Virus genome (UHGV): UHGV-0075871
Strand: one strand, 5' to 3'
From: a virus
DNA length: 37,149 nt
A model generated the notes under the pieces. It was not told the DNA's origin. It was given only the letters and a program-made list of their open reading frames with translations, and did not search any database. Numbering within the stretch: position 1 is the first letter of the stretch; each line of letters opens with the position of its first letter. Made by a program: the position numbers and the translations under genes. Of this stretch, positions 3,557-32,415 are shown one piece after another.

Positions 3557-3646
3557 TTACCTCGGTCTGTTACCGTTGAGGTAATGATTATGCGTATTTG
3601 GTTTGGTGTCAATAGATATGAGTTAAAAAAATTACCCTTAAGGTAA
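3557..3646. promoter_or_regulatory. OL-like operator cluster: TTACC-N5-GGTAA palindromes
   Basis: Perfect palindromes TTACCGTTGAGGTAA (3570..3584) and TTACCCTTAAGGTAA (3632..3646) plus a half-site at 3557..3561, between the repressor gene terminator and the first leftward gene. Confidence 0.6.
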
Positions 3647-3656
3647 TTGTGTAGAC

Positions 3657-3682
3657 AATAAAAAAGCCGCCAGAAGGCGGCT
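3657..3682 (-). terminator. rho-independent terminator downstream of the repressor gene
   Basis: On the minus strand GCCGCC-TTCT-GGCGGC followed by TTTTTTATT. Confidence 0.7.
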
Positions 3683-3703
3683 TACTTACTGAAAAATATG
3701 ATT

Positions 3704-4288
3704 TTATTGTTTGTTTTTTTCGTTCTGGTTGATGACAAATTCAATGTAACTTTCGATCTTTGCTTTCTCGGTTTCGGGTAACAATGCGTAGCGCGAGCGG
3801 TCATAGTTGATGGTCGCAGGGTCGTGCGGGTGAATCAGTAATTCATAGCCGTGACGCCCGAATGCGGATGCAACATTCTCCAGGGTGGAAATGGAAACGC
3901 TGACCTCATTGTTTAACAGGCGGCTGATTGTCACCTGGGCGACGCCGGATGCGCGGTGAAGTTTTCCCTGTGTTGAAAGGTCGCGGCTTTCGCTCATCCA
4001 GCGTTCCAGGTTGTGAGCCGCCAGCTGACCAATGTCGCTTGGGCCGACAGGCTGAAAACCTTCCTGAGAAAGCGAGCGATCGATATCAAGCCAGTTACGG
4101 GGTTTATTGGCGGCAGCTTCAATTTTTCGCGCAACCTGGTCGCCGATAACCTTCTTGCCAAGAGCCCAGCGGTTTACCAGATTTGCCTGAGTTCCAAGTT
4201 TTTCTGCCATCCGCGTCTGAACACCATTGAATTCACGGTCGATCAAGTCGTTGAGATTTTGCCTGCGGACGTCCTGGATACTTTTCAT
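3704..4288 (-). CDS. phage immunity repressor (CI-like, two HTH motifs, no S24 peptidase domain)
   Basis: 194 aa; two HTH-like segments (TRMAEKLGTQANLVNRWALG and VAQVTISRLLNNEVSVSIS); divergent from a Cro-like gene across an operator-rich spacer; no G-D-S-M / Ser-Lys autocleavage motif. Confidence 0.7.
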   Translation of the reverse strand: MKSIQDVRRQNLNDLIDREFNGVQTRMAEKLGTQANLVNRWALGKKVIGDQVARKIEAAANKPRNWLDIDRSLSQEGFQPVGPSDIGQLAAHNLERWMSESRDLSTQGKLHRASGVAQVTISRLLNNEVSVSISTLENVASAFGRHGYELLIHPHDPATINYDRSRYALLPETEKAKIESYIEFVINQNEKNKQ

Positions 4289-4343
4289 TTTCTGGAAAAT
4301 CGCCTCGTATATGAATCAGTAGATGATTCAATTTAAAGCAATA

Positions 4344-4406
4344 TTACCCAACAGGTAAATGCACCCCATAGGTAACTATCCTTGATTTTTGTTACCTTAT
4401 GGGTGA
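4344..4406. promoter_or_regulatory. OR-like operator cluster between repressor and Cro-like genes
   Basis: TTACCCAACAGGTAA (4344..4358, perfect), GCACCCCATAGGTAA (4361..4375, variant), TTACCTTATGGGTGA (4392..4406, variant): three tandem sites as in lambdoid OR. Confidence 0.6.
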
Positions 4407-4442
4407 ATATTTATTATCTGAAATAAATATCAGGCAATAGCT

Positions 4443-4673
4443 ATGAGCGATAACGGACATTTCGATTTCAAAAAGCACTGGCTTGCACTTACTCCGGATG
4501 AGCGTGAAGCCTTCGCACAGGAAGCCGGAACGACGAGTCACTATATCCAGACTCACTTAACAGGTAAGCGCAAAATGCCAGGTAAAGTATTGATGAATGG
4601 GCTTTTTAAAGCCTGTAAAACAAGACAATGGCTGCGCTCAAAAGCAGAACTGGCATACTTCTTCTACTCATGA
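4443..4673 (+). CDS. Cro-like / small HTH regulator
   Basis: 76 aa ORF divergent from the repressor gene, followed by a terminator; position and size match a cro analogue; sequence family not recognised. Confidence 0.55.
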   Translation: MSDNGHFDFKKHWLALTPDEREAFAQEAGTTSHYIQTHLTGKRKMPGKVLMNGLFKACKTRQWLRSKAELAYFFYS

Positions 4674-4696
4674 TATCCAGCCACAACCCTCTGTAG

Positions 4697-4718
4697 ACCG
4701 CCACCCGGCGGTCTTTTC
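4697..4718 (+). terminator. rho-independent terminator after the Cro-like gene
   Basis: GACCGCC-ACCC-GGCGGTC followed by TTTT. Confidence 0.6.
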
Positions 4719-4728
4719 ATATCTATTC

Positions 4729-4743
4729 GCACCTCAAAGGTAA
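4729..4743. promoter_or_regulatory. variant operator-like palindrome GCACC-N5-GGTAA
   Basis: GCACCTCAAAGGTAA directly after the terminator and upstream of the next small gene. Confidence 0.35.
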
Positions 4744-4823
4744 TAAAAAACCAAATCTGGTTGATCTTTTTTTTGTGTCAGCACAAAATGACCGTAATCC
4801 CAATACTAATAACAGGGCTTACC

Positions 4824-5024
4824 ATGGAAATCATTACACGTATTGATGCCGCAAAGCGCGGACTTAAACGCTACTACACCGGAAAACCATGTAAGCACGG
4901 ACATGACAGTGAACGTTGGGTTTACAACGGACACTGTGTTGAGTGCACCATGGAATCAAACCGTCGCATCAGGGCTGAGATTAAGCAGATCATGATTAAT
5001 TCCTCCCCACAACATTCAAGCTGA
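4824..5024 (+). CDS. small Cys/His-rich hypothetical protein (possible zinc ribbon)
   Basis: ORF track 4761..5024; likely start at MEIITR; KPCKHGHDSERWVYNGHCVEC suggests a Zn-binding ribbon; occupies the cII position but does not resemble lambda CII. Confidence 0.4.
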   Translation: MEIITRIDAAKRGLKRYYTGKPCKHGHDSERWVYNGHCVECTMESNRRIRAEIKQIMINSSPQHSS

Positions 5025-5039
5025 TAGCGGAGATTAATC

Positions 5040-5855
5040 ATGAGCAGACATGCAACAGATTGGGCCTGGGAGACAGATCCAGGTAGCTCATCATTAAAGC
5101 TCATACTGCTCTCGATGGCTGACAGAGCCGATGAATATAACCTCTGCTACCCCAGCATAGAACGCCTCGTTAAAGACACTTGCCTGAATAAAAAAACCGT
5201 GCAGGCCGGGCTTATATCGCTCATGAAAATGGGGCTTATTTCAGATACCGGAGAGAGAAAGGGAGCGACAAAAAGAGTGCGGGTTTTCTCTCTTAATATA
5301 ACCAAAAACGGGAACATTAAAGGCAACCGAGAGGGGGGCAATGAACCCGAAAACGGTAATGTTACCGAAAACGGGAATATACCCAAAAACGGGATGTTGA
5401 ATGATCCCAAAAACGGGATGTTGAATGATCCCAAAAACGGGATCCAGAACCAGTCATATAACCAGTCATTTAACCAAGAGAGGGAGAGCAGGACAAAAAA
5501 CGGGGATTCTGTGCATCATGACCCCGGCGCAAACAACGCCGTGATGAATAACTTTGTTCCTCCTGGTGGGCCAGGGCAATTAGGCAAATTTGTCATGCAT
5601 GAACAATGGCAGCCATCAGATGACTTTCTTCGGAAAAGCTCATTGCAGGGGATCTACCTGGACAGTCTGCCAACGGCACAGGAACTTGCAGAGTTCAGAA
5701 TTTACTGGATGGCTGAGGGTAAGGCATACCATCAGGCACAGTGGGAGCAGAAGCTGGCAAGGCGGCTGCAGATTAGCAGACAGAAGCAATCAACATTACC
5801 TGATAACAACGTTCCGCACTGGAACAGCCCTGAAGCATGGGAGGATTTCTTGTGA
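5040..5855 (+). CDS. replication initiator (lambda O-like position; N-terminal winged-helix, iterons within gene)
   Basis: 271 aa; ATG with GGAG 8 nt upstream; N-terminal HTH-like region; central N/G/K-rich linker encoded by direct DNA repeats; directly upstream of, and overlapping, a lambda P homologue. Confidence 0.7.
   Translation: MSRHATDWAWETDPGSSSLKLILLSMADRADEYNLCYPSIERLVKDTCLNKKTVQAGLISLMKMGLISDTGERKGATKRVRVFSLNITKNGNIKGNREGGNEPENGNVTENGNIPKNGMLNDPKNGMLNDPKNGIQNQSYNQSFNQERESRTKNGDSVHHDPGANNAVMNNFVPPGGPGQLGKFVMHEQWQPSDDFLRKSSLQGIYLDSLPTAQELAEFRIYWMAEGKAYHQAQWEQKLARRLQISRQKQSTLPDNNVPHWNSPEAWEDFL
5302..5447. repeat. iteron array (candidate phage replication origin) inside the initiator gene
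   Basis: About six direct repeats of CC(C/G)AAAACGGGA, including two identical 24-bp copies CCCAAAAACGGGATGTTGAATGAT at 5382..5405 and 5406..5429, then CCCAAAAACGGGATCCAG. Confidence 0.6.
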
Positions 5856-6637
5856 ACAACGTTTTTACCGCGATACAAAACCGTGACGGAGAAGCCCTTT
5901 CTCGCATGTCAGGTTATGAGCATCAGTACACCAACAATGACAACGTGGTGAACATGTCAGCAGAGAGGCTTGTTGATGCCCTTTTCAAACAGCTGAAACA
6001 ACTGTTTCCGGCGGCAGTGGTAACCAACCTGAAGACGCCAGAGCAGGAAGTTGCTGCAAAACAGCAGTGGATTGCTGCGTTTGCCGAAGGGGGGATCCGA
6101 ACCCGTGAACAGGTTTCTGCTGGTATGCGCCACGCCCGCGCCAGTGAGTCTCCGTTCTGGCCGTCGCCAGGGCAATTCATCAAGTGGTGTAAAGACAGCA
6201 AGATGGTTCTTGGCGTCACCATTGACGATGTGATGGCGGAGTTTCACCGGTACAGCAAGGAAAAAAGTTTATATCCTGGTGGTCCCGAAAGATTCCCGTG
6301 GCGACATCCGGTTATGTACTGGGTCGTATGTGATACCCGCCGTGCAATGTATCAGCGCCAGCTTAGCGAGATTGAGGTTGAGAAACACGCGCGCAGGCTG
6401 CTCGATGATTGGGCGAAAAAGGTAGCTTCCGGACAGCAGATACCCGATCCGGTGATCAGCATACAGGCAAAGCGAGAGCCCATGAGTACACCTCCGGACA
6501 CAGGGAGAGACGTTTACCATCCACCAGGGCGAAGTTTCGGGTGCATGCCTAACGCCGCCACCCTTGGGGGAATAACACCGGCGCAGTGGCTGATGGAGGA
6601 ATACAGGCGGGGAAAGGCGGCAGGATTTATCAAGTAA
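5852..6637 (+). CDS. P: replication protein P-like (helicase loader)
   Basis: EQVSAGMRHARASESPFWPSPGQFIKWCKD aligns closely with lambda P EQVNAGMRVARRQNRPFLPSPGQFVAWCRE; GTG start at 5852 with GGGAGGA 7 nt upstream, overlapping the O-like stop (ORF track begins at 5837). Confidence 0.85.
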   Translation: MNNVFTAIQNRDGEALSRMSGYEHQYTNNDNVVNMSAERLVDALFKQLKQLFPAAVVTNLKTPEQEVAAKQQWIAAFAEGGIRTREQVSAGMRHARASESPFWPSPGQFIKWCKDSKMVLGVTIDDVMAEFHRYSKEKSLYPGGPERFPWRHPVMYWVVCDTRRAMYQRQLSEIEVEKHARRLLDDWAKKVASGQQIPDPVISIQAKREPMSTPPDTGRDVYHPPGRSFGCMPNAATLGGITPAQWLMEEYRRGKAAGFIK

Positions 6638-6674
6638 TACCAGCGCGATAGCGCATTTTTTTACGTCTTGATAA

Positions 6675-6751
6675 TTACCTGTTGGGTAATAAAATATTCT
6701 AAAATCTATTGATTTCGTGTCTTATGTGGTTTTTAATTACCTTAGAGGTAA
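6675..6751. promoter_or_regulatory. two TTACC-N5-GGTAA operator-like palindromes upstream of the next operon
   Basis: TTACCTGTTGGGTAA (6675..6689) and TTACCTTAGAGGTAA (6737..6751), the latter overlapping the RBS of the gene starting at 6755. Confidence 0.55.
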
Positions 6752-6754
6752 ATC

Positions 6755-7102
6755 ATGAGAAAACAGATACAGGCTCTTGGTCGACTCAAAACAGGCCAGA
6801 TGAACAAAACAGAATCTGCGTATTGCCAGCACCTTGAGCAGCGTAAACGTGCAGGGGAAATCGCCTGGTATCGATTCGAGGGTATTAAGCTGCGGTTAGC
6901 TGACAACACGTTCTATACGCCCGATTTCGCTGTGATGCTCGCCACCGGAGAGATGGAACTGCACGAAGTGAAAGGGGGATTCTGGACCGACGACGCCAGG
7001 GTGAAAACCAAAGTAGCCGCAGATCAGTATCCGTTCCGAATCATCGGGGTAACGGTTAAACCAAAGAAAGCAGGTGGCGGCTGGAACATCGAAGAGTTCT
7101 GA
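6755..7102 (+). CDS. conserved prophage protein, possible PD-(D/E)xK-type nuclease
   Basis: 115 aa; YTPDFAV ... ELHEVKG resembles a D ... E-x-K nuclease core; family assignment by memory only. Confidence 0.5.
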   Translation: MRKQIQALGRLKTGQMNKTESAYCQHLEQRKRAGEIAWYRFEGIKLRLADNTFYTPDFAVMLATGEMELHEVKGGFWTDDARVKTKVAADQYPFRIIGVTVKPKKAGGGWNIEEF

Positions 7103-7163
7103 ATCGACGATCTTTTTAGTTATCAATGTAATCAATAAGTTATGTGGATAAGCGAGGGTAAAG

Positions 7164-7598
7164 ATGGAAAGTAATATCAAAGGGTTAGTTTCCGCCGGGC
7201 ATGAGATGGCTTCGGAACTGAAAGCTGAATGTGGTGCCGTTGATATGCGCAGTGTGGCAAAGCTGATCAGCGATTTGGCAACGCAACTGGAAGTGCAATT
7301 GGTGCGTGCTAATGCGCTGGCAGCGGAGAATGCGGCAATGCATGAAACTATTGAAGCCGTTCGGAGTGTTGCGGATAACTCCAGTGGAATTGCCGGATGG
7401 CATTTGAATGGCGATATCGCTACATGGGAAGAGATTCTTCCTGAAATTAACGATATCGAAACCACAGCCACCGATGCTTTCCTGGCTGAAGTGCGGGCGC
7501 AGGGCGTGGAGATGTTTGCGGAGTGTGCATACACGCTTGAACATCATGATCACGCAGTAGCCTTCGCCGCTGAGCTTCGCAAAGGAGGCAACCAGTGA
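7164..7598 (+). CDS. hypothetical protein
   Basis: 144 aa ORF with GAGGG RBS; coupled to the downstream gene (GTGA overlap). Confidence 0.6.
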   Translation: MESNIKGLVSAGHEMASELKAECGAVDMRSVAKLISDLATQLEVQLVRANALAAENAAMHETIEAVRSVADNSSGIAGWHLNGDIATWEEILPEINDIETTATDAFLAEVRAQGVEMFAECAYTLEHHDHAVAFAAELRKGGNQ

Positions 7599-8038
7599 GC
7601 AAGATTGATTATCAAAAGCTTCGTGAAATCGCTGAAAAAACAAAAATTGCTGGTGAAGCACCTGTAATGCCCTTCGATCAGCGAATTAATGCGCTTAACG
7701 ATTTTATGAAGCACTTTTCGCCAGATATCGCGCTGGCACTGCTGGATGAACGGGAAAGAAACCTGCAATACATCAAAAGCCGCGATCAGGAGAACGAGGA
7801 TATTGCGCTAACGGTAGGGAAGCTGCGCGTTGAGCTTGAAGCAGAAAAACAGCGGGCAAAAGTTCTATTTATGGAAAATGCTCGGCTTAAGTCAGGCATA
7901 GCCGGTCTGATACACCTCGGTATTCGATATGCAGATGTTGATGTCATGAAAATTGCTGGAGATGCCCAGCTTTCTACCCCATGCACTGACAGCATCATAA
8001 ACAGCATTGCAACAGGCATTCGCATCAAAGGAGAGTGA
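7595..8038 (+). CDS. ead/Ea22-like family protein
   Basis: 147 aa; GTG start with AAAGGAGG 6 nt upstream; N-terminal MSKIDYQKLREIAEK ... ALALLDERERNLQ typical of Ea22-like prophage proteins (recalled, not searched). Confidence 0.55.
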   Translation: MSKIDYQKLREIAEKTKIAGEAPVMPFDQRINALNDFMKHFSPDIALALLDERERNLQYIKSRDQENEDIALTVGKLRVELEAEKQRAKVLFMENARLKSGIAGLIHLGIRYADVDVMKIAGDAQLSTPCTDSIINSIATGIRIKGE

Positions 8039-8039
8039 T

Positions 8040-8249
8040 ATGGCTATCGCTGCAAGTTACACCATGCATCTCTATTGTGACTGCCGCCAGTGTACGGAAG
8101 GTGTATATCCAGTGCCAGACTTCGGTGAGTATATCGGTACGTCATGGTCTGGTTGTGCAAAAGAGGCCCGTAAAGACGGGTGGCGAATAAGTAAAGACAA
8201 AACACGTGCTTTTGCGCCCGGGCATAAAGTTTTGAGGATTAACAAATGA
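8040..8249 (+). CDS. small Cys-rich hypothetical protein
   Basis: ORF track 8007..8249; start moved to the ATG at 8040 just after the upstream stop with AAAGGAGAG RBS; CDCRQC motif. Confidence 0.45.
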   Translation: MAIAASYTMHLYCDCRQCTEGVYPVPDFGEYIGTSWSGCAKEARKDGWRISKDKTRAFAPGHKVLRINK

Positions 8250-17438: not shown

Positions 17439-17489
17439 CGCCTGTTATTAACCTGTGGGCCGCAACAGGCCCACTAATGGAGAAAGAAG

Positions 17490-18288: not shown

Positions 18289-18311
18289 CAAGGGGCTTCG
18301 GCCCCTTTATT
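18289..18311 (+). terminator. rho-independent terminator after the head genes
   Basis: AGGGGC-TTCG-GCCCCT followed by TTATT. Confidence 0.65.
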
Positions 18312-18323
18312 GCAGGAGTGTAT

Positions 18324-25245: not shown

Positions 25246-27044
25246 GTTACTTTGGCCTTAATCCAGTAAACCAGAATCAGCAGCTTGACGAAGCAGCATC
25301 AAATCCAGCTGGCTTTAACAGCGATGTTGGTTTTTTCGACAATGCTGTAGGAGCGGCATTGTCTGGTTTGTACTCCGGGCTGGTGGCAAAGCCAGATCAG
25401 TTGCTATGGGCAGGGATGGATAAAATCGTATCCCCGATTGCTCAGTTTGTTAACGAAAACACCTCGCTCAATGATACTTCAGTTTCATACATTGCCGAGC
25501 AGAGAAAACTAGCAGAGCAGCAGGTTAAGCGGCTGACGCCTGATGCCGCGACAACTGGAACCGCTGGGCAGGTTCTTTATGGGTTGTTCGATATGGGCGG
25601 GCAGGCTGTTGTCGGTACAACGCTCGGTGGTCCGGTCGGAGGTGCTGCGGCGGTAACTTCTCTACAGGGTTTTTCTGAGTTTGAACGGCTGACAGCACAG
25701 GGTGTTGATTTCAGGACGGCGCAGGAAGCGGGATTAGTGCAGGGCATTACTGCTGGTGCCGGAACGCTGATCCCTATGAGCCTCGGGTTACGTGCTGGTG
25801 GTGCGCTGGCGGAAGGTGTGGCGGCTCAGCTTGCGCGGACGGGTGAGAGTTCAGTGCGACGCGCCGCAGCAACAGCAGTACGTGCAACGCCAGATATTGC
25901 CTATGCCGCAGGTACAAATATTGCGTTCGGTATGGCACAGCGTGGGCTTACTGCAAAAACGCTTCGTGATGGTGGCTATAGCGAAATGGCTAACCAGTAT
26001 GATGTGTTGGATCGACAGGCAATTGCTATTGATGCTGTTCTTGGGGTGGCGTTTGGTGGTGTCGGCAGATTTATTAACTCTCGCGGCGAGTCTACAAGCA
26101 CACCAAATTTTTCACCAGTTGATATCGATGCTGCACTGGCGGCGAATGCCGCTCATCATGCTGAAATTGATATTGCTCCTGGCGTGCCGATCAACGTGCT
26201 TTCGCGTAATTCTCACATTCAGGCTCTGCGAAAAGCTATGTCTGATGTTAGCCAGGGGAGACCTGTAGACGTTGCCAGCATTGTTGAGTCTGCATCTTTC
26301 AGTGAAATTCCTGGGCGCAAGAATCTGCTGTCTCAGGCAGTTAATGAGGCTCTGTCATCTGTAGATGATGGAGTAACGGCGCGCGCTATCGAAAATCGGT
26401 TGCTTGAAGAACAGGCTGCGCAGCTTTTGCCGCGTGGCGATAGACAGGTTTACCAGTCTGAAATCGCTAATAGCCAACGAATTATCGACAATCTCACTGA
26501 ACAGCGTGCACAAATTCTTGCAGAAGAGCCAACCGGTAGCGGTAAAGCTTTGTCTCGTGCTCGATCAGATAAACAGGCCAGACTTCGCGATATTGATCAA
26601 CGAATCCGGCAGGCACAAGAACGCCTGGAATTTTCCCGTAACGCGTTGGCGCCGCACGAGCCTGGAGGTCAGTTTTTTGAAGCTCGAGCAGAACTGGCAC
26701 GGCGACAGCAGGCAGAAAGTGAACTTAATGCTCAGGCTGTTTCATTCTATAAAACAGCAGAGGTCAGGACGCCAGACGAAGTAGCTCCTTTTGAGCCCGG
26801 TAAGATATTGCAACAGACAGAACAAAAAATGATGGCAGATCCGGCAGGAGATATTGATCTGCGTATAGCTGAAGACTCGCTGCTTGAATCTCCGGACATG
26901 ATAATCACCGTGCTGGATGATGATGGTAATCCACAATCGCGCAGTGCGCGTGAAGTACTGGATGAAGCGAACAGGGAAAGTGAGCAGGCAATACAGGATT
27001 CCAGCCTGTTTGATGTTGCTGTGGCGTGTTTCTTGAGAGGTTAA
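25242..27044 (+). CDS. internal virion / DNA-ejection protein
   Basis: 600 aa, ATGA-coupled to the previous gene; Ala/Gly-rich N-terminus and helical C-terminus. Confidence 0.65.
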   Translation: MSYFGLNPVNQNQQLDEAASNPAGFNSDVGFFDNAVGAALSGLYSGLVAKPDQLLWAGMDKIVSPIAQFVNENTSLNDTSVSYIAEQRKLAEQQVKRLTPDAATTGTAGQVLYGLFDMGGQAVVGTTLGGPVGGAAAVTSLQGFSEFERLTAQGVDFRTAQEAGLVQGITAGAGTLIPMSLGLRAGGALAEGVAAQLARTGESSVRRAAATAVRATPDIAYAAGTNIAFGMAQRGLTAKTLRDGGYSEMANQYDVLDRQAIAIDAVLGVAFGGVGRFINSRGESTSTPNFSPVDIDAALAANAAHHAEIDIAPGVPINVLSRNSHIQALRKAMSDVSQGRPVDVASIVESASFSEIPGRKNLLSQAVNEALSSVDDGVTARAIENRLLEEQAAQLLPRGDRQVYQSEIANSQRIIDNLTEQRAQILAEEPTGSGKALSRARSDKQARLRDIDQRIRQAQERLEFSRNALAPHEPGGQFFEARAELARRQQAESELNAQAVSFYKTAEVRTPDEVAPFEPGKILQQTEQKMMADPAGDIDLRIAEDSLLESPDMIITVLDDDGNPQSRSAREVLDEANRESEQAIQDSSLFDVAVACFLRG

Positions 27045-27049
27045 ATTAA

Positions 27050-29524
27050 ATGAGACAGGAATGTATACAAGCGGTCCAGCAGGCGGCGCAGCGCACGTTA
27101 ACGGCGCGAGAAATACAGAACATTGAAGACCGCATTTATCGAAATATGCGCTCCATTGCTCGTGATGACCCGATGTCGTGGCGACAACTTTCCGAATCAG
27201 AACGGTTGTATCGTGCAGCACAATTGGCATCTGAAGAATTACAGCGAGAAGCGGCATTAAAGAAACGTCGTGTGGCCCTCACTATAGCCGCACGTCAGAG
27301 ATTGGATAAATTTATCAATAGCTATCAAGGGGCTGATGGGAAACTTGGCGCTCTTAACCGTACTATTGCTTTTAATGCAGACGGTAAATCGAATTTCCTC
27401 TCTGTTGAATCCAGAACAAAAGCCACTCGTGATTATGCATTGAGTCAATTGCAGGAGGCATTTGAAGCAGTTGATCCTCGCTTTTTTGGCCTGTTTGAAG
27501 ATGAAGCGGGCGTGCGTGACCTGGTATATGAAATGCGAGGGCAAAATACTGGCAATGCTAAAGCAAGAAAAGGTGCTAAGGCGTGGAGAGAAGTGACAGA
27601 TCTACTGCGCCGCCGGTTTAATGATGCTGGTGGGGACATTGGCTATCTCGAAAACTGGGGGATCCCTCAACATCATTCTATGGAAAAGGTTGGGGCGGTA
27701 TCAAAAGATAAATGGGTTAGCGATGTTATAGGTAAGCTGGATCGCAAATATTATACCCGAGCCGATGGACAACTGATGAACGATGCCGAGTTGTCTGCAT
27801 TTCTTGGAGAGGCTTATAACACGATCGCTACTGGTGGGCTGAATAAGCTTACTGATACCGGAATGCGAATTTCCGGCGCACGTGCTAACCGTGGTAATGC
27901 ATCACGACAGATACATTTCAAAGATGCAGATTCCTATCTGCAATATCAGCAACTTTATGGCGATCGCTCTCTATGGGAAATCATGGTCGGTCACCTTGAA
28001 GGTATCAGTAAAGATATTGCACTGGTGGAAACATATGGCCCAAACCCCGATCATGTTTTCCGCTCTCTTCTTGATCAGGTGAAGGCAGAAACGGCAACAG
28101 CTAACCCGAGTAAAACCGGTAAAGTCGAGCGGCTGGCGAACAACACAGAGAATCTGTACAACTTTATTTCCGGAAAGACACAGCCTGTAGCGAATCCGCA
28201 CATCGCGCGATGGTCTGACAATATCCGCAACTGGCTGGTTGCCAGCAGACTCGGATCCGCGTTGCTGTCATCGTTCTCTGATCTTGGAACCATGTATCTG
28301 TCTGCGAAGGTGACCAACCTTCCAATGAACCAGTTATTCCGCAACCAGCTTGAAGCTATGGACCCAACGAACCGTACAGAACTTGCGCGGGCGCGCCGCG
28401 CTGGTCTGGCGATGGAATCTCTACTTGGCAGCGTTAACCGCTGGGCGATGGATAATATGGGGCCGTCTGTGTCTCGTTGGGCTGCAACGGCGGTAATGCG
28501 TGCCAGTGGGCTTACAGCATGGTCAGATGCGCACAAGCGCGCCTATGGCGTAACCATGATGGGAAGCCTGGGAGAAGTAGTGTCACGGACACCAGACCTT
28601 CGTAGCCTCGATGATTCTGATTTTCGTATCCTGAAAAGCAAAGGGATTACTGACACAGACTGGAGCGTATGGAAGCTGGCGCAACAGGAGGACTGGGGGA
28701 ACGGCAATAATACGATGCTGACACCGGAAAGCATTATGCGTATCCCTGATTCAGCAGTTAAACATCTTGGTGAGCCTGAACGCGTGAAATTTGAGGCAAT
28801 GCGTAAACTGCTCGGTGCCGTAACTGAAGAAGTTGATATGGCTGTTATTACACCGGGAGCACGTGAGCAACTGATAACCGGTTCTGGTATTCAGCGTGGA
28901 ACATGGAAAGGTGAATTAACGAGAAGTGTTTTCCTGTTTAAATCGTTCCCTATCTCGGTGGTTATGCGTCACTGGTCACGCGCTATGGGTATGCCGTCTG
29001 CTGGTGGGCGTGCGGCATATATTGCGACGTTTATTGCCAGTACGACCATTCTTGGCGCTTTGTCGCAGCAACTTAACGACCTTGCGTCTGGTCGTAATCC
29101 TCGCGAGATGACAGGAGAAGATGCTGCTAAATTTTGGCTTGGTGCTCTACTGAAAGGTGGTGGTCTTGGCCTTTACGGTGACTTTTTATTGTCAGATCAC
29201 ACTAGTTACGGAAGCGGCGCGCTGGCGTCGATGCTTGGCCCGGTAGCTGGTCTGGTTGATGACGTAGTGAAGATTGCTCAGGGCATACCGTTAAATGCTG
29301 TGGAAGGGAAGAGTGAGCAGACTGGTGGTGATCTGGTGAAGCTGGGGAAAGGTTTGATGCCAGGTGCGAATCTCTGGTACTTAAAGGCGGCTCTCGATCA
29401 TATGATCTTTAACCAGATGCAGGAGTATTTTTCACCAGGCTATTTGCGTAAAATGGAGCAACGTTCGAAGAAAGAGTTTAACCAGACATACTGGTGGCGA
29501 CCTCAGGATGTCACTCCGCAATAA
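27050..29524 (+). CDS. internal virion / DNA-ejection protein (largest)
   Basis: 824 aa; third member of the ejection-protein trio. Confidence 0.65.
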   Translation: MRQECIQAVQQAAQRTLTAREIQNIEDRIYRNMRSIARDDPMSWRQLSESERLYRAAQLASEELQREAALKKRRVALTIAARQRLDKFINSYQGADGKLGALNRTIAFNADGKSNFLSVESRTKATRDYALSQLQEAFEAVDPRFFGLFEDEAGVRDLVYEMRGQNTGNAKARKGAKAWREVTDLLRRRFNDAGGDIGYLENWGIPQHHSMEKVGAVSKDKWVSDVIGKLDRKYYTRADGQLMNDAELSAFLGEAYNTIATGGLNKLTDTGMRISGARANRGNASRQIHFKDADSYLQYQQLYGDRSLWEIMVGHLEGISKDIALVETYGPNPDHVFRSLLDQVKAETATANPSKTGKVERLANNTENLYNFISGKTQPVANPHIARWSDNIRNWLVASRLGSALLSSFSDLGTMYLSAKVTNLPMNQLFRNQLEAMDPTNRTELARARRAGLAMESLLGSVNRWAMDNMGPSVSRWAATAVMRASGLTAWSDAHKRAYGVTMMGSLGEVVSRTPDLRSLDDSDFRILKSKGITDTDWSVWKLAQQEDWGNGNNTMLTPESIMRIPDSAVKHLGEPERVKFEAMRKLLGAVTEEVDMAVITPGAREQLITGSGIQRGTWKGELTRSVFLFKSFPISVVMRHWSRAMGMPSAGGRAAYIATFIASTTILGALSQQLNDLASGRNPREMTGEDAAKFWLGALLKGGGLGLYGDFLLSDHTSYGSGALASMLGPVAGLVDDVVKIAQGIPLNAVEGKSEQTGGDLVKLGKGLMPGANLWYLKAALDHMIFNQMQEYFSPGYLRKMEQRSKKEFNQTYWWRPQDVTPQ

Positions 29525-29533
29525 GGAAGTGTT

Positions 29534-29707
29534 GTGTTTTTAATTATTTTGAGTGTGATAATTTCTGGTGGGTTGTTATTTATTGACCGCTACAAATATT
29601 TTCTTAACCCTCAGACTCAAGCTATTTGCTGGTTCATCTTTGTTGTGCAGGGAATAGTTCTTGTTGCAAGCCTTATTGAGGGGAGGCCTCTGATTTTTAC
29701 TGGGTAA
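29534..29707 (+). CDS. small two-helix membrane protein (candidate)
   Basis: Not in the ORF track (<60 aa); GTG at 29534 four nt after AAGGAAG; predicted product has two hydrophobic helices (FLIILSVIISGGLLFI and AICWFIFVVQGIVLVASLI). Confidence 0.35.
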   Translation: MFLIILSVIISGGLLFIDRYKYFLNPQTQAICWFIFVVQGIVLVASLIEGRPLIFTG

Positions 29708-29719
29708 ATAGGTGACTAC

Positions 29720-30016
29720 ATGCAAGCTATAGGATTCATTGTTTATATCGTCGTTGGTCTTTTTCAGTTGGCAGCAATTATGGCTGGGCTTGAATCATGG
29801 TGGGGATTGCACTGGATAATTGCAGCCCCCATTGCTTTCATCGTGAGCTATATTCCATTTGTTGGAGCGATTGTTGGTATGGTTGGCGCTGTGGATGTAT
29901 GGCGGTGGGAGTGGTGGCAGGCTGGCATTCTCTTCTTTGGTGGGATCATCTTTGCTGTTGTCTGCGGTGGAATGTCATCATTTTTCGAATGGCTATCATT
30001 CAGAAAAGGGACGTGA
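29720..30016 (+). CDS. small multi-pass membrane protein (Trp-rich), candidate superinfection-exclusion function
   Basis: 98 aa, about three hydrophobic helices and a WRWEWWQ motif; stop codon inside the palindrome GTGACATGTCAC, followed by a terminator. Confidence 0.6.
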   Translation: MQAIGFIVYIVVGLFQLAAIMAGLESWWGLHWIIAAPIAFIVSYIPFVGAIVGMVGAVDVWRWEWWQAGILFFGGIIFAVVCGGMSSFFEWLSFRKGT

Positions 30017-30025
30017 CATGTCACA

Positions 30026-30049
30026 GGCCGCTTTCGCGGCCTTGTTTTT
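30026..30049 (+). terminator. rho-independent terminator after the membrane-protein genes
   Basis: GGCCGC-TTTC-GCGGCC followed by TTGTTTTT. Confidence 0.65.
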
Positions 30050-30209
30050 AACGAATGCCACCGCCACCCGGGCGGGAATCCGCAGAACGCCCACCGCAGC
30101 GGGAGCCGTCAGCGGCAGTATCGCTGTCGTGCTGACAACGACCGGCAAAAGCCTGAGTTGAAGCTACCAGAGACAACAAAACGAACAGTGCAGCAAATGC
30201 TTTTTTCAT
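30048..30209 (-). CDS. small secreted peptide (candidate)
   Basis: Internal ATG of ORF 30048..30281 gives MKKAFAALFVLLSLVASTQAFA-GRCQ..., a classic Sec signal peptide with AXA cleavage site; plausible promoter TTGACG-16-TATAGA upstream; weak RBS; mature part Gly/Arg-rich and GC-rich, so uncertain. Confidence 0.3.
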   Translation of the reverse strand: MKKAFAALFVLLSLVASTQAFAGRCQHDSDTAADGSRCGGRSADSRPGGGGIR

Positions 30210-30303
30210 TGTGAAATTTCCATCTATAAGCCACCTCAATGTGGCGTCAATGAGTGTAGCACTGACTTTTGTTTCGTCCACAAAAAAAGCCCGCAGCGCT
30301 GGC

Positions 30304-30843
30304 TTACCAAAACTTGTACCACGGGGATTTATCCTTCAATGGGCAATCCTTCCATCGTGTGGCCAACCATTCATATTCTTTAAAATATGTGTTTATGTTT
30401 TCTTTTTCTCTAATGGCTTGTATAAGAGGTAGCGCAATCTGATAGTTATTTACAACGGAGCTGTAAAATACTTCCTTAATCATGGTCTCATCATAAGTTT
30501 TCCGCTTCACGCTCACAGCCATGCGTTCGTAGAAACCTAGACAGTAAATTATTTCTCTCTTCTCTGTCTTTTCTTCATCCGTAAGATCAGCCTGCCCATT
30601 GCTTGGATACATATAAGAGCGGAATGATTTGTTCGACTCGTGAATGCGGCGCATAGTAGATAGGCCTTTCTTATAATCTACATCAAACCTGCTTTCACCA
30701 AGGAATACTGAAGTGTGTACTTTTCTCGCTGTATTTACATTATAAATAATAGTAGCGATAGCTATGAACAAGCCAAGCGAAACCGCGACTGCACTTACGA
30801 TTTGAGCCACAGCCATGGCAAATTGCATTTCTTCACTTAACAC
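30304..30843 (-). CDS. moron: single-pass membrane protein, function unknown
   Basis: 179 aa; N-terminal hydrophobic helix (MAVAQIVSAVAVSLGLFIAIATIIY) then a soluble Lys/Glu/Tyr-rich domain; lower GC than neighbours; opposite strand; own leader with a 10-codon ORF and hairpin. Confidence 0.65.
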   Translation of the reverse strand: MLSEEMQFAMAVAQIVSAVAVSLGLFIAIATIIYNVNTARKVHTSVFLGESRFDVDYKKGLSTMRRIHESNKSFRSYMYPSNGQADLTDEEKTEKREIIYCLGFYERMAVSVKRKTYDETMIKEVFYSSVVNNYQIALPLIQAIREKENINTYFKEYEWLATRWKDCPLKDKSPWYKFW

Positions 30844-30902
30844 AAACTGTCTCCAGACATGAAAACGGGGCCTGATGGCCCCGTCATTAAACTATCCGAA
30901 TG

Positions 30903-30935
30903 TTAAACGCCTTCGTACTCGTCAAATTTTCTCAT
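30903..30935 (-). other. 10-codon leader ORF (MRKFDEYEGV) with strong RBS, followed by a hairpin
   Basis: On the minus strand GGAGGAG, 5 nt, ATG, 10 codons, stop; then after about 18 nt the hairpin ACGGGGCC-ATCA-GGCCCCGT (30865..30884) followed by TTTC; lies between an operator-like site and the moron start. Confidence 0.3.
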
Positions 30936-30972
30936 GTGGGCTCCTCCTGTATCGGTGCCTAATCGCTATGGA

Positions 30973-30987
30973 TCACCCGTAAGGTAA
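30973..30987. promoter_or_regulatory. variant operator-like palindrome TCACC-N5-GGTAA
   Basis: TCACCCGTAAGGTAA upstream (minus-strand sense) of the leader ORF and moron. Confidence 0.35.
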
Positions 30988-31059
30988 TAGTACTCTATTC
31001 ACCCCCCGGTCTGCAATCGTACAGGATTATTTAAAGGCACATCCCTGTGCCGCCGCCCG

Positions 31060-31752
31060 TCAGAAGAACCCAGCCTTGTCGTTGATGTACTCCGCGTGCG
31101 TCTGGATATCACGCAGGCATTTGCTCACACCAACGATGTAGCAGAACATGGTGGTCAGCTCCGCCGCCGCGCCCGATACGTCGTGCCCGTCGTCCTGTAA
31201 CTGGTTCAGCAGATTCATCAGCAGTGAGTTCTCCGTCAGGCCGAGAACACCAGACGGAGAATGAATCAGGCTACGGTAGCCGGGCTTCAGTGGAGCACTG
31301 TAGGTTTTGTTCTCTATCTTCATCGCCTGCATTACTGCTGACGCCGTGGCGTTGGCTACCTGGTCGGCAACCATCTTTATGCGTTCTTCCTGCGGTAGCG
31401 AGTTTTTAATGTAACTTCCGGTGCGGCGGATCTGAGGAAGAACCTCGCCTGTAACCCATTCAAGAAATCTGAATGCTCTCGTTCCCTCAGTCATTGCCTC
31501 TTTGCAACGCAGAATAAGGATGTAGAGACCTGATTCTGAAACGATGGATAGTTCTTGTATTCCACCAGGGGTCTGTATTGAATACAGCCCCTTTTTGTTC
31601 CAGCCTTTTTTATCAAGTTTTCTCGCTTGTGTAACATCAATATTCAAAGCATTGCACACATCTTTGGTGACAAACCAAGGTTCTCCGTCAATCATGAACA
31701 TACGGATCTGGCAGGATGACTCAAAGGAAAAGATGGAAGGTTTGGTATTCAT
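31060..31752 (-). CDS. antirepressor-type protein with Bro-N-like N-terminal domain
   Basis: ORF track 31060..31797; start moved to MNTKPSIFSF with AAGGTG RBS; N-terminal FESSCQIRMFMIDGEPWFVTKDVCNALNI resembles Bro-N; C-terminal ~85 aa paralogous to the small gene at 32067..32324. Confidence 0.7.
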   Translation of the reverse strand: MNTKPSIFSFESSCQIRMFMIDGEPWFVTKDVCNALNIDVTQARKLDKKGWNKKGLYSIQTPGGIQELSIVSESGLYILILRCKEAMTEGTRAFRFLEWVTGEVLPQIRRTGSYIKNSLPQEERIKMVADQVANATASAVMQAMKIENKTYSAPLKPGYRSLIHSPSGVLGLTENSLLMNLLNQLQDDGHDVSGAAAELTTMFCYIVGVSKCLRDIQTHAEYINDKAGFF

Positions 31753-31778
31753 GGCGATCACCTTTGTAGTTAGGTTAA

Positions 31779-31811
31779 TCACCACCGCTGAGACCAATCA
31801 GATGGTGGTGA
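31779..31811 (-). other. stem-loop in the 5' leader of the Bro-N gene with hexaloop GACCAA (plus-strand sense)
   Basis: TCACCACCGCTGA-GACCAA-TCAGATGGTGGTGA; imperfect 12-bp stem; same loop sequence as the hairpin at 31949..31964. Confidence 0.4.
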
Positions 31812-31904
31812 ACTGTGCAGAGTTGGTCTTACCGGCTACAAAGGAACCCGGCGCACCTTTCGGTGCCCCCACACAGCCCACCATAGAATAGGTGCGCTTT
31901 ACAC

Positions 31905-31994
31905 ATAAAAAAAACCGCTTATGCGGCATATGTGCCTCTGTAGTAATCCGGGAGACCAATCCCGGCACTGGATTTTGCCAGTGCCCGATTACTA
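31905..31994 (-). ncRNA. candidate structured RNA element / small RNA between the two antirepressor genes
   Basis: Outer 8-bp stem TAGTAATC/GATTACTA (31941..31948 with 31987..31994) enclosing hairpins CGGGA-GACCAA-TCCCG and GCACTGG-ATTTTG-CCAGTGC; in minus-strand sense followed by short hairpin CCGC-ATAA-GCGG and T8 (31907..31926); operator palindrome just upstream. Confidence 0.25.
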
Positions 31995-32020
31995 TGGCAC
32001 AAGAGGAGTGCGATGTAAAT

Positions 32021-32035
32021 TTACCTCAAAGGTAA
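32021..32035. promoter_or_regulatory. TTACC-N5-GGTAA operator-like palindrome
   Basis: TTACCTCAAAGGTAA between the two antirepressor-type genes. Confidence 0.5.
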
Positions 32036-32066
32036 ATATAAGCACTCCACTTGGTAATTGCAAACC

Positions 32067-32324
32067 TTATCTGGTTTGTTTTCGTAATTGTTCGGCACAA
32101 TAGTCGAGATGTGTTTGCAGATCCCGCATAGACATCTGTGAGCTGGTGACGTAGTTAATCAGTGCAGTCAGTTCGGCAAGTGGGCCATCGACATTAAATC
32201 CATCCTTATCGAGATCCCGGAGTAATTTCATCAAGTGCGATCCCTCCACCAGTGACCTGACGCCTCCCGGCGTGTGAATCCTTTCGGTAAATCCGTCTTC
32301 CAGTGGATAGTGATACCGCTGCAT
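32067..32324 (-). CDS. small antirepressor-domain protein (paralogue of the Bro-N protein C-terminus), LexA-controlled
   Basis: ORF track 32067..32342 (TTG start); likely start at the ATG (MQRYHYP...) with GGAGAAG RBS; IHTPGGVRSLVEGSHLMKLLRDLDKDGFNVDGPLAELT...MRDLQTHLDY parallels the C-terminal region of the 31060..31752 product; LexA box about 20 nt upstream. Confidence 0.6.
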   Translation of the reverse strand: MQRYHYPLEDGFTERIHTPGGVRSLVEGSHLMKLLRDLDKDGFNVDGPLAELTALINYVTSSQMSMRDLQTHLDYCAEQLRKQTR

Positions 32325-32345
32325 CTTATCTTCTCCATGCAATAA

Positions 32346-32361
32346 CTGTATATTTATACAG
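32346..32361. promoter_or_regulatory. LexA (SOS) box
   Basis: AACTGTATATTTATACAGTA: CTGT-N8-ACAG with an AT-rich spacer, near-consensus. Confidence 0.7.
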
Positions 32362-32400
32362 TATCAAATAATTTGTTTGCTATCCAGCACGTTTTGCAAA

Positions 32401-32415
32401 TTACCATAAAGGTAA
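32401..32415. promoter_or_regulatory. TTACC-N5-GGTAA operator-like palindrome
   Basis: TTACCATAAAGGTAA in the divergent spacer between the small antirepressor gene and the tailspike gene. Confidence 0.5.

What the first reader, a model, noticed from the sequence alone, without database searches (positions are those of the whole stretch)
3557..32415. Genome-wide 15-bp palindrome TTACC-N5-GGTAA at promoter-like intergenic regions (dispersed operator network)
Nine perfect copies were found by eye: 3570..3584, 3632..3646, 4344..4358, 6675..6689, 6737..6751, 12827..12841, 13441..13455, 32021..32035, 32401..32415. Half-degenerate variants (xxACC-N5-GGTAA or TTACC-N5-GGTGA) lie at 4361..4375, 4392..4406, 4729..4743 and 30973..30987. 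A fixed 10-nt palindromic pattern is expected about 0.04 times by chance in 37 kb. All copies are intergenic and promoter-proximal: three flank each side of the repressor gene like OL/OR, but others precede the nin-like operon, both AT-rich morons, the virion gene block and both antirepressor genes. This suggests one dimeric DNA-binding protein (candidates: the 194-aa two-HTH repressor or the Cro-like protein) controls nearly every transcription unit, closer to phage P1 C1 operators or mycobacteriophage stoperators than to lambda. The motif could alternatively be a promoter element for an activator.
Basis: seen in the sequence. Interest (0 to 1): 0.75.

Follow-up and report, generated by a model that had tools for sequence, protein, structure and literature searches.

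The report
Repressor operator sites of a phiV10-like prophage
The repeated palindrome TTACC-N5-GGTAA is real and marks the binding sites of this E. coli prophage's lysogeny repressor in front of almost every transcription unit, but the same sites are already annotated in the related Salmonella phage epsilon15, so it is a sound observation rather than a discovery.

Summary
Shuffles give none. All ten lie in the 6% of the window that is intergenic.

The window is a phiV10/epsilon15-like podophage (genus Uetakevirus). The epsilon15 GenBank record already annotates the identical palindrome ATTACC-N5-GGTAAT as "repressor / lysogeny" binding sites. Those sites occupy the same dispersed positions: before terS, the virion block, the tail fibre gene, PL and the nin-like operon.

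The 194-aa protein (3704..4288, -) is a full-length homologue of SPC32H Rep (PDB 5D50). Its sequence is identical to the ZX5 repressor, whose overexpression shuts off lysis-gene transcription.

Across 87 related loci the arms are almost invariant and the spacer is hypervariable. Paired sites keep a 62-bp spacing. Sites occur only where Rep keeps the NLVNRW/TLVNRW helix.

At seven or more units the operator overlaps a -35, spacer or -10/+1. The best model is promoter occlusion by a Rep tetramer, relieved by a LexA-controlled Ant.

A C4-RNA/antirepressor module sits behind one operator. Novelty is low.

Open points are how the late-unit sites act and whether spacer composition sets immunity type.

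The parts
3570..3584 (.). Operator OL1, perfect. It abuts the -10 of the leftward early promoter PL and covers about -7 to +8.
3632..3646 (.). Operator OL2, perfect. It lies 62 bp from OL1, upstream of the PL -35 and just after the rep terminator (3683..3664).
3584..3612 (-). PL-like promoter, TTGACA-17-AATCAT (10 of 12 consensus positions).
3704..4288 (-). Rep, the 194-aa lysogeny repressor. It has an N-terminal HTH DNA-binding domain with the invariant helix NLVNRW, a middle HTH_3-like domain and a C-terminal tetramerisation/Ant-binding domain.
   Evidence: PMC9986798
4344..4358 (.). OR-side operator, perfect.
4361..4375 (.). OR-side operator with 2 mismatches (GCACC..GGTAA), 17 bp from 4344. 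The same 17-bp pair is found in epsilon15, SPC32H and the Klebsiella phage.
4392..4406 (.). OR-side operator with 1 mismatch (GGTGA). It overlaps the -35 and spacer of the rightward promoter.
4389..4417 (+). PR-like promoter, TTGTTA-17-TATTAT, reading into the Cro-like gene.
4443..4673 (+). Cro-like 76-aa protein (phrog_35 'transcriptional repressor'). Its HTH 'AGTTSHYIQTHLT' is invariant across the genus, so it is a possible second user of the same operators.
4729..4743 (.). Degenerate site (GCACC..GGTAA) just after the terminator 4695..4714 and before the replication genes. Relatives carry GTACC here.
6675..6689 (.). Operator, perfect. It fills the spacer of the nin-like promoter TTGATA(6668)-16-TAAAAT(6695).
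6737..6751 (.). Operator, perfect. It lies 62 bp from 6675 and ends 3 nt before the ATG at 6755.
9786..9800 (.). It follows the terminator 9749..9766 and abuts an extended -10 (TGgTACTAT, 9778..9786) upstream of terS.
9804..9818 (.). Operator with 1 mismatch (GGTTA), 18 bp from 9786. It overlaps the terS ribosome-binding site and start codon.
12827..12841 (.). Operator, perfect, 33 bp upstream of the AT-rich 296-aa gene (11904..12794, -). It lies inside a candidate promoter GTGACT-17-TAATAT (8 of 12 consensus positions).
13441..13455 (.). Operator, perfect, between the tRNA-Arg gene and the virion block. It contains the -10 (TACCTT) of a leftward promoter whose -35 TTGACA (13477..13472) is conserved in 7 genomes. 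It also lies 41 bp upstream of a conserved late-promoter-like element.
30973..30987 (.). Operator with 1 mismatch (TCACC) upstream of the AT-rich DUF4760 gene (30304..30843, -). It abuts a candidate -10 TACTAT (TTGCAG-18-TACTAT).
32021..32035 (.). Operator, perfect. It abuts the -10 of the leftward promoter TTGCAA-17-TATATT (32063..32035), which drives isrK-like RNA, then C4 RNA, then the Bro-N antirepressor.
31060..31984 (-). immI-like module: isrK-like RNA 31984..31908, C4 antisense RNA 31888..31801, and a Bro-N protein with an Ant-like C-terminal domain 31797..31060.
32401..32415 (.). Operator, perfect, in the divergent ant/tailspike intergenic region. It fills the spacer of a weak rightward candidate promoter (TTGCAA-16-TATCTA) and lies about 57 bp upstream of the candidate LexA-controlled ant promoter.
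32067..32324 (-). Small antirepressor Ant, 87% identical to the SPC32H protein annotated as ant (anti-repressor).
32346..32361 (.). LexA (SOS) box CTGTATATTTATACAG, 22 nt upstream of the ant start codon.

Best explanation
TTACC-N5-GGTAA (fuller form A-TTACC-nnWnn-GGTAA-T) is the operator of the prophage's lysogeny repressor Rep (3704..4288, -). Rep is an epsilon15/SPC32H-type repressor with no autocleavage domain. I infer that pairs of N-terminal HTH domains from a Rep tetramer each read one palindrome. At PL, PR, the nin-like promoter, the terS promoter, the immI-like promoter and probably the two AT-rich accessory genes, the operator sits on the -35, the spacer or the -10/+1, so bound Rep would exclude RNA polymerase. 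Pairs spaced 62 bp (PL, nin) and 17-18 bp (OR, terS) would let one tetramer hold two sites cooperatively, bending the DNA between them. Rep would therefore silence early, replication, packaging, tail and accessory units directly, instead of only PL and PR as in lambda. Induction would not need repressor cleavage. DNA damage removes LexA from the box at 32346..32361, the small Ant is made, and Ant takes Rep off the DNA. That also opens the Rep-controlled C4-RNA/Bro-N-Ant module as a second antirepressor layer. The Cro-like protein probably uses the same sites during lytic growth. What is shown here: the sites, their positions relative to promoter-like hexamers, their conservation and spacing, the protein homologies and the annotation precedent. 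What is inferred: binding itself, the tetramer bridging, and the order of events at induction.
For: (1) The depositors' epsilon15 record (AY150271.2 and NC_004775) marks seven ATTACC-N5-GGTAAT sites as protein_bind 'repressor / lysogeny', before terS, gp3, the tail fibre gene, PL (three sites) and the nin/RuvC unit. These are the same motif in the same layout.
(2) Rep aligns end to end with SPC32H Rep, PDB 5D50, at E = 4e-42. Published descriptions give that protein an N-terminal DNA-binding domain, a middle dimerisation domain and a C-terminal tetramerisation/Ant-binding domain, and say it binds palindromic sites as a tetramer (PMC9986798, PMC9638917).
(3) The window's Rep is 100% identical to ZX5 ORF21. 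Overexpressing ORF21 abolished free phage and cut endolysin and holin transcripts by 99.99% and 99.97% (PMC9782041).
(4) All 10 perfect sites are intergenic, P = 6e-13.
(5) The best-scoring sigma-70-like sites in the scan regions coincide with operators: PL, the nin-like promoter, PR and the immI-like promoter.
(6) Seven Uetakevirus genomes from E. coli, Salmonella, Enterobacter and Klebsiella each have 8-11 perfect sites at syntenic places.
(7) In 87 loci, 5 of 80 arm columns vary, against 28 of 40 spacer columns and 153 of 454 other intergenic columns (Fisher p = 4e-13 and 5e-8).
(8) Neighbouring sites are 62 bp apart in 162-165 pairs.
(9) Prophages whose Rep keeps the NLVNRW or TLVNRW helix have 4-7 perfect sites within 5 kb of rep. 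Loci with a homologous N-terminal domain but a different helix (Paraburkholderia, Hydrogenovibrio, Thiomicrospira, Pseudomonas phage PseuP_224) have none.
(10) The Ant homologue is 87% identical to SPC32H Ant and has a LexA box upstream.
Against: No binding data for these sites could be read here. Kropinski 2007, Kim & Ryu 2013 and Kim 2016 are not in the held library, and the epsilon15 features may themselves be predictions. Rep and the Cro-like protein always occur together and both have invariant recognition helices, so sequence cannot say which one binds, or whether both do. At the virion, tailspike and (in relatives) lysis units the operator lies 29-41 bp upstream of a conserved late-promoter-like element. 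That places it roughly 60-85 bp upstream of the likely start, which is not an occlusion position. Several proposed promoters match only 8 or 9 of 12 consensus positions. The lysis cassette in this window has no operator.
Confidence: 0.85

Rival explanations
1. The palindrome is mainly or only the site of the 76-aa Cro-like protein (4443..4673), which turns units down during lytic growth, while Rep recognises something else.
For: The Cro-like protein is more conserved across the genus (58-84% identity) than Rep (43-78%), and its HTH segment is invariant, which matches the invariant arms. It falls in a PHROG annotated 'transcriptional repressor'. It co-occurs with the motif in every Uetakevirus genome examined.
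Against: No other repeated palindrome lies between rep and cro that Rep could use. The epsilon15 depositors assign the sites to the repressor. The Rep N-terminal helix is also invariant. Sharing operators between repressor and Cro is the norm in lambdoid phages (established knowledge), so exclusive use by Cro is the less economical reading.
Confidence: 0.08
2. A subset of the sites (post-cro 4729, terS 9786/9804, virion 13441, tailspike 32401) does not occlude a promoter. These sites would instead act as roadblocks to read-through transcription (stoperator-like), or as anti-activation or looping anchors upstream of activator-dependent late promoters.
For: 4729 and 9786 lie 15-20 bp downstream of intrinsic terminators. 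At three late units a conserved CATATrTGGTT-N7-TAATAA/TAATAG/TATAAT element with no -35 lies 29-41 bp downstream of the operator. The C-terminal domain of the Rep homologue has been classed as a DNA-looping tetramerisation fold (PMC9986798).
Against: The sites are symmetric, so they cannot carry the orientation bias that defines stoperators. Every site is intergenic and none lies within an operon. 9786 abuts an extended -10 and 13441 contains the -10 of a conserved leftward promoter, so simple occlusion remains possible at these two.
Confidence: 0.2
3. The motif is a promoter element or activator site, or the site of a host factor, rather than a repressor operator.
For: The right arm GGTAAT is often followed by A/T-rich -10-like sequence (GGTAATAAAAT, GGTAATATGC), and the motif precedes nearly all units.
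Against: The sites occupy the -35, the spacer or the -10/+1 of otherwise good sigma-70 promoters, which are repressor positions. They cluster on both sides of the repressor gene. They are absent from phages and loci that lack a Rep with this helix. Overexpressing Rep silences lysis genes (PMC9782041).
Confidence: 0.03

Closest known systems
Repressor-binding sites annotated in Salmonella phage epsilon15 (AY150271.2 / NC_004775) and the Rep-Ant switch of Salmonella phage SPC32H (PDB 5D50, 5D4Z)
   Same: The palindrome is identical (ATTACC-N5-GGTAAT). The dispersed layout is the same: terS, virion block, ant/tail fibre region, PL, OR and the nin unit. The 62-bp and 17-bp spacings match. Rep is homologous over its full length, Ant is 87% identical, and a LexA box lies upstream of ant.
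   Different: Rep here is only about 42% identical to the epsilon15/SPC32H protein and belongs to the phiV10-type clade. Its operators have more G/C in the 5-bp spacer. The window adds sites before two AT-rich accessory genes and before a C4-RNA/Bro-N-Ant module. The phiV10 and PAS61 records annotate no operators, and the epsilon15 record marks only 7 of its 11 perfect sites.
Phage P1 C1 repressor with its many dispersed operators, and the immI region (c4 antisense RNA - icd - ant) (from established knowledge of P1)
   Same: One repressor has operators spread over the genome, including in front of late and accessory functions. An antirepressor operon begins with a repressor-controlled promoter and a C4-family antisense RNA (Rfam RF01695, 78.6 bits).
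   Different: The P1 operators are asymmetric 17-mers and C1 is an unrelated protein. Here the sites are palindromic, and Rep contains HTH_3/XRE-type HTH domains and is described as a tetramer in its SPC32H homologue. The similarity is one of logic, not of family.
Stoperators of Cluster A mycobacteriophages such as L5 (from established knowledge)
   Same: Many copies of one repressor site lie outside the immunity region, and a few copies here sit just after terminators.
   Different: Stoperators are asymmetric 13-14-mers, oriented with transcription, number 20-30 or more, and often lie within operons. Here there are about 15 sites, all symmetric and all intergenic, and most overlap promoter hexamers.
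Lambda/P22-type OL/OR operators with a cI/C2 repressor
   Same: The repressor gene is flanked by divergent early promoters with multiple adjacent operators, and a Cro-like gene is transcribed from the rightward promoter.
   Different: Rep has no S24 peptidase or autocleavage domain. Operators are not confined to the immunity region. Induction is by an antirepressor.

Membership tests
Uetakevirus (epsilon15/SPC32H-type) Rep operator network | A repressor homologous to SPC32H/epsilon15 Rep over its full length (N-terminal HTH DNA-binding domain, middle domain, C-terminal tetramerisation/Ant-binding domain) | tested here: met
   phmmer against PDB 5D50, E = 4e-42, query residues 1-190 aligned. 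The genus alignment shows the invariant helix NLVNRW.
Uetakevirus (epsilon15/SPC32H-type) Rep operator network | Operator sequence identical to the sites annotated as repressor-binding in epsilon15 | tested here: met
   All seven epsilon15 protein_bind 'repressor' features read (A)TTACC-N5-GGTAA(T).
Uetakevirus (epsilon15/SPC32H-type) Rep operator network | Sites flank rep and recur at syntenic positions before terS, the virion block, the ant/tailspike region and the nin unit, with conserved spacing | tested here: met
   Seven genomes compared. The 62-bp spacing occurs in 162-165 pairs across 87 loci.
Uetakevirus (epsilon15/SPC32H-type) Rep operator network | A small Ant antirepressor controlled by a LexA box | tested here: met
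   Ant is 87% identical to SPC32H Ant. CTGTATATTTATACAG lies at 32346..32361, 22 nt upstream of the start codon. That LexA controls ant in SPC32H is recalled from Kim & Ryu 2013, which could not be read here.
Uetakevirus (epsilon15/SPC32H-type) Rep operator network | Physical binding of Rep to the palindrome and repression of the adjacent promoters | not testable with these tools
   Only indirect support: overexpression of the identical ZX5 Rep silences the lysis genes (PMC9782041).
Phage P1 C1 regulon | A C1-family repressor and an asymmetric 17-bp operator | tested here: not met
   Pfam finds only HTH_3/HTH_26/YdaS-type matches in Rep, and the sites are perfect palindromes. The C1 operator consensus is taken from memory.
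Phage P1 C1 regulon | An immI-type antirepressor operon with a C4 antisense RNA behind a repressor-controlled promoter | tested here: met
   Rfam C4 (RF01695) at 31888..31801, 78.6 bits against a gathering score of 45. The promoter and operator are at 32063..32021. The Bro-N/Ant gene lies downstream.
Cluster A mycobacteriophage stoperators | Asymmetric sites with an orientation bias relative to transcription, many lying within operons | tested here: not met
   The sites are symmetric. All 10 perfect copies and 5 of the 6 degenerate copies judged real or possible are intergenic.
Lambda-type cI/OL-OR switch | A repressor with a RecA-dependent S24 autocleavage domain, and operators confined to the immunity region | tested here: not met
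   Rep has no Peptidase_S24 match, and 9 of the 15 sites lie outside the rep/cro region.

The most novel reading that the evidence does not exclude
Two things are not excluded by the evidence. First, the 5-bp spacer, rather than the arms, may carry immunity specificity. All Uetakevirus Reps share the TTACC half-site and the NLVNRW/TLVNRW helix. Yet genomes with a phiV10-type Rep have 1.3-2.0 G/C per spacer and genomes with an epsilon15-type Rep have 0.2-0.9, with no overlap in 6 versus 7 genomes. Within the phiV10 type the spacer varies more than the surrounding intergenic DNA. This would be indirect readout, as known for the 434 and P22 repressors. Second, the solitary sites 60-85 bp upstream of the conserved late-promoter-like element CATATrTGGTT may act through Rep-tetramer looping or anti-activation rather than occlusion. 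That would make the prophage a looped, two-key regulon.
Probability: 0.2. Interest if true: 0.5.

Novelty: already known. Interest (0 to 1): 0.3.

Why it matters
The practical value is annotation transfer. The phiV10-type prophages are very common in E. coli: over 300 IMG/VR stretches encode a relative of this Rep, and the 80 loci kept are all 100% identical to it. Yet the phiV10 and PAS61 records mark no operators. Mapping about 15 sites and their promoter geometry gives a ready regulatory map for phiV10-based reporter and biocontrol phages, and for reading prophage induction data. The conserved 62-bp pairs give a concrete DNA substrate for the tetrameric 'trans' binding model of SPC32H Rep, whose repression mechanism is described as not extensively characterised (PMC9986798). 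If spacer composition sets immunity type, it would explain how a genus with a single half-site can still hold different immunity groups.

Tried and rejected
- Primary papers: Kropinski 2007, Kim & Ryu 2013 and Kim 2016 were sought by DOI and by PMC id, and none is held. Full-text searches for the motif string and for 'Uetakevirus repressor' found no paper describing the operator. The epsilon34 genome paper says nothing about epsilon15 operators.
- IMG/VR scan with a Rep alignment: it returned 80 loci that all encode the identical Rep. These were useful for polymorphism counts but not for covariation.
- Distant N-terminal-domain homologues (Paraburkholderia, Hydrogenovibrio, Thiomicrospira, PseuP_224): they lack the motif. 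An enumeration of palindromes found no clear replacement, so this is only a negative control, not positive covariation.
- AACC-N6-GGTT as a second palindrome: not significantly enriched, 19 hits against 12 expected. The narrower CATATRTGGTT is enriched.
- PADLOC: no defence-system match for the two AT-rich genes or the neighbouring ORFs.
- PDB sequence searches for the Cro-like and gp49-like proteins: nothing usable.
- Host-factor and restriction-modification explanations: considered and rejected because the motif follows Rep across four host genera and is confined to promoter regions.

Full report
**Observation**

A scan for TTACCNNNNNGGTAA finds 10 perfect copies. The tenth is 9786..9800.
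- No match occurred in 100 dinucleotide-preserving shuffles.
- Allowing one mismatch adds 4392, 9804, 30973 and 35426, with 0.57 expected by chance.
- The two-mismatch copies 4361 and 4729 are the only two-mismatch hits in intergenic DNA, and both sit next to other copies or regulatory signals.

I built a conservative gene map from the ORF list and the annotations of close relatives. In it, 6.0% of the window is intergenic, and all ten perfect copies fall there (P = 6e-13). Base composition of the intergenic DNA predicts 0.003 copies.

9786 and 9804 lie inside the terS CDS as annotated in phiV10 and PAS61. In epsilon15 and Tyrion, however, terS is annotated to start right after the second site. 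An in-frame ATG-ATG follows 9804 at 9818/9821. I therefore treat these two sites as upstream of terS. Pooled over seven genomes, the consensus is A-TTACC-nnWnn-GGTAA-T.

**What the window is**

The window is a phiV10/epsilon15-like temperate podophage of the genus Uetakevirus. It is 96-98% identical over most of its length to PAS61, phiv142-3, ZX5 and phiV10. It runs from the left-operon methylase gene to the Rz-like lysis gene and lacks int.

**Decisive comparison**

Extracting them shows each is (A)TTACC-N5-GGTAA(T). They lie:
- before terS,
- before gp3 (the virion block),
- before the tail fibre gene,
- three times at PL,
- before the nin/RuvC unit.

The motif, its assignment to the repressor and its dispersal are therefore already public for this genus. 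Epsilon15 actually has 11 perfect copies, four of them unannotated. The phiV10 and PAS61 records annotate none.

**The protein**

The 194-aa product of 3704..4288 (-) has HTH matches only and no S24 peptidase domain.
- It aligns over residues 1-190 with SPC32H Rep, PDB 5D50, at E = 4e-42.
- Papers that describe that structure say Rep has an N-terminal DNA-binding domain, a middle dimerisation domain and a C-terminal tetramerisation domain that also binds the antirepressor Ant. They say it binds palindromic sites as a tetramer, and that its repression mechanism has not been extensively characterised (PMC9986798; PMC9638917).
- The window's Rep is identical to ORF21 of phage ZX5. Overexpressing ORF21 abolished free phage and cut endolysin and holin transcripts by 99.99% and 99.97% (PMC9782041).

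**Comparative tests run here**

1. Seven Uetakevirus genomes from four host genera each have 8-11 perfect copies at syntenic places. The one-mismatch variants are also conserved: TCACC before the lysis genes and GGTAT about 57 bp before int.
2. I aligned the PL, OR, post-cro and nin regions across 87 related loci. Only 5 of 80 arm columns vary, against 28 of 40 spacer columns and 153 of 454 other intergenic columns (Fisher p = 4e-13 and 5e-8). Selection therefore acts on the arms, and the spacer is freer than the background.
3. Spacing between neighbouring sites is fixed: 62 bp in 162-165 pairs (range 61-63), 17-18 bp, and 48 bp across the OR triple.
4. Overall identity among Reps is as low as 43%, yet the N-terminal helix NLVNRW is invariant. 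In a scan of one genome per species, prophages of Superficieibacter, Erwinia, Klebsiella, Citrobacter and Scandinavium keep NLVNRW or TLVNRW and carry 4-7 perfect sites within 5 kb of rep. Loci with a homologous N-terminal domain but a different helix carry none; these are Paraburkholderia, Hydrogenovibrio, Thiomicrospira and Pseudomonas phage PseuP_224.

The Cro-like 76-aa protein is equally conserved in its HTH. Sequence alone therefore cannot exclude that it binds the same sites, and by analogy with lambdoid phages it probably does.

**Geometry**

The top-scoring sigma-70-like matches coincide with operators.

| Promoter | Hexamers | Operator position |
|---|---|---|
| PL | TTGACA-17-AATCAT | OL1 begins at the last base of the -10 |
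| immI-like | TTGCAA-17-TATATT | same register, operator 32021 |
| terS | extended -10 TGgTACTAT | same register, operator 9786 |
| DUF4760 (candidate) | TTGCAG-18-TACTAT | same register, operator 30973 |
| nin-like | TTGATA-16-TAAAAT | operator 6675 fills the spacer |
| tailspike (weak candidate) | TTGCAA-16-TATCTA | same register as nin, operator 32401 |
| PR | TTGTTA-17-TATTAT | its -35 is overlapped by 4392 |
| 296-aa gene (candidate) | GTGACT-17-TAATAT | 12827 lies inside it |
| leftward, toward tRNA-Arg | TTGACA-17-TACCTT | 13441 contains the -10; the -35 is conserved in all seven genomes |

These are repressor positions, not activator positions. The second members of the 62-bp pairs lie upstream of the PL -35 (3632) or over the ribosome-binding region of the first nin gene (6737). 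That fits one tetramer holding two sites.

**Induction module**

- The ORF at 32067..32324 (-) is 87% identical to the SPC32H protein annotated as ant. A near-consensus LexA box lies 22 nt upstream.
- From memory of Kim & Ryu 2013, which I could not read here, Ant in SPC32H is LexA-controlled and inactivates the non-cleavable Rep.
- Directly downstream, the promoter at 32063..32035 with operator 32021 leads into an isrK-like RNA and a C4 antisense RNA, both above the Rfam gathering scores.
- Next comes a Bro-N protein whose C-terminal 80 residues are homologous to the small Ant (43% identity, E = 3e-16).
The family test for P1 C1 fails, because the operator is symmetric and the protein unrelated.

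**Unresolved**

At the virion, tailspike and lysis units a second conserved element follows the operator by 29-41 bp. It reads CATATrTGGTT-N7-TAATAA/TAATAG/TATAAT and has no -35. All seven matches with at most one mismatch in the window are intergenic, against 1.3 expected.

If this is an activator-dependent late promoter, the operators there sit roughly 60-85 bp upstream of the start. They would then have to work by anti-activation, looping or roadblock, or else they control other promoters, such as the leftward one at 13441. The lysis cassette of this window has the element but no operator.

Spacer G/C content separates phiV10-type from epsilon15-type Rep genomes without overlap. This hints at spacer-encoded immunity, but it rests on a single phylogenetic contrast.

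**Verdict**

The kind of system is already known and annotated in a sister phage, so novelty is low and interest modest.

Noticed in passing
window 31801..31984 (-): Two Rfam families score above their gathering thresholds: isrK Hfq-binding RNA (31984..31908, 74.7 bits) and C4 antisense RNA (31888..31801, 78.6 bits). They lie between the small ant gene and the Bro-N antirepressor gene, which resembles the P1 immI layout. The 56-aa ORF 31798..31968 is therefore probably not a gene.
   Followed up: partly
window 31060..31797 (-) and 32067..32324 (-): The 245-aa Bro-N protein carries a C-terminal domain homologous to the small Ant (43% identity over 74 aa, both in phrog_450). The phage therefore encodes two proteins with the Ant module. 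One is under LexA and one is under the Rep operator plus C4 RNA.
   Followed up: partly
window 32346..32361: A near-consensus LexA SOS box, CTGTATATTTATACAG, lies 22 nt upstream of the ant start codon and overlaps a candidate -10 (TACTGT). It is conserved in all seven genomes compared.
   Followed up: yes
window 13497..13525, 32445..32473, 35229..35257 (also 6721..6731, 35153..35163): A second conserved motif, CATATrTGGTT followed 7 nt later by a -10-like TAATAA/TAATAG/TATAAT, precedes the virion, tailspike and lysis units in every Uetakevirus genome examined. All 7 hits with at most one mismatch in the window are intergenic, against 1.3 expected. It looks like an activator-dependent late promoter. 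The candidate regulators are the gp49-like protein (9361..9699) and the PerC-like protein (693..992).
   Followed up: partly
window 13043..13119 (-): A tRNA-Arg(UCU) gene, followed by a 14-bp-stem terminator (12999..12964), lies in the long non-coding stretch between terL and the virion block. The overlapping 79-aa ORF 12874..13113 (+) is probably spurious.
   Followed up: partly
window 9740..9821; L001 12387; L002 41: The terS start annotated in phiV10 and PAS61 (equivalent to TTG 9740 here) places a terminator and two operators inside the CDS. The ATG at 9818/9821, matching the epsilon15 and Tyrion annotations, is the more likely start.
   Followed up: partly
13 genomes: window, L001-L006, L089-L094: The G/C content of the 5-bp operator spacer separates genomes by Rep clade. 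phiV10-type genomes have 1.3-2.0 G/C per spacer and epsilon15-type genomes 0.2-0.9, with no overlap, while flank composition is the same.
   Followed up: partly
L001 238, L002 26870, L003 26882, L004 26960, L005 28568, L006 12620 (outside the window): A conserved one-mismatch variant, TTACC-N5-GGTAT, lies about 57 bp upstream of the integrase start codon in every relative. int may therefore also be under Rep control. The window ends before int.
   Followed up: no
window 3704..4288 versus 32067..32324: Between this phage and SPC32H, Ant is 87% identical while its target Rep is only about 42% identical. That is an unexpected asymmetry for a binding pair.
   Followed up: no
window 11904..12794 (-) and 30304..30843 (-): Two AT-rich accessory genes (GC 0.33 and 0.40 against 0.49 for the window) each have an operator upstream. 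One encodes a 296-aa protein of unknown function and the other a DUF4760 protein. Neither matches a PADLOC defence model. If Rep represses them, they are not expressed in the lysogen as a typical moron would be.
   Followed up: partly
L003 24704, 33341, 33358, 35969: The epsilon15 record annotates only 7 of its 11 perfect copies. The two OR copies, the second nin copy and the copy before the lysis genes are unmarked.
   Followed up: yes
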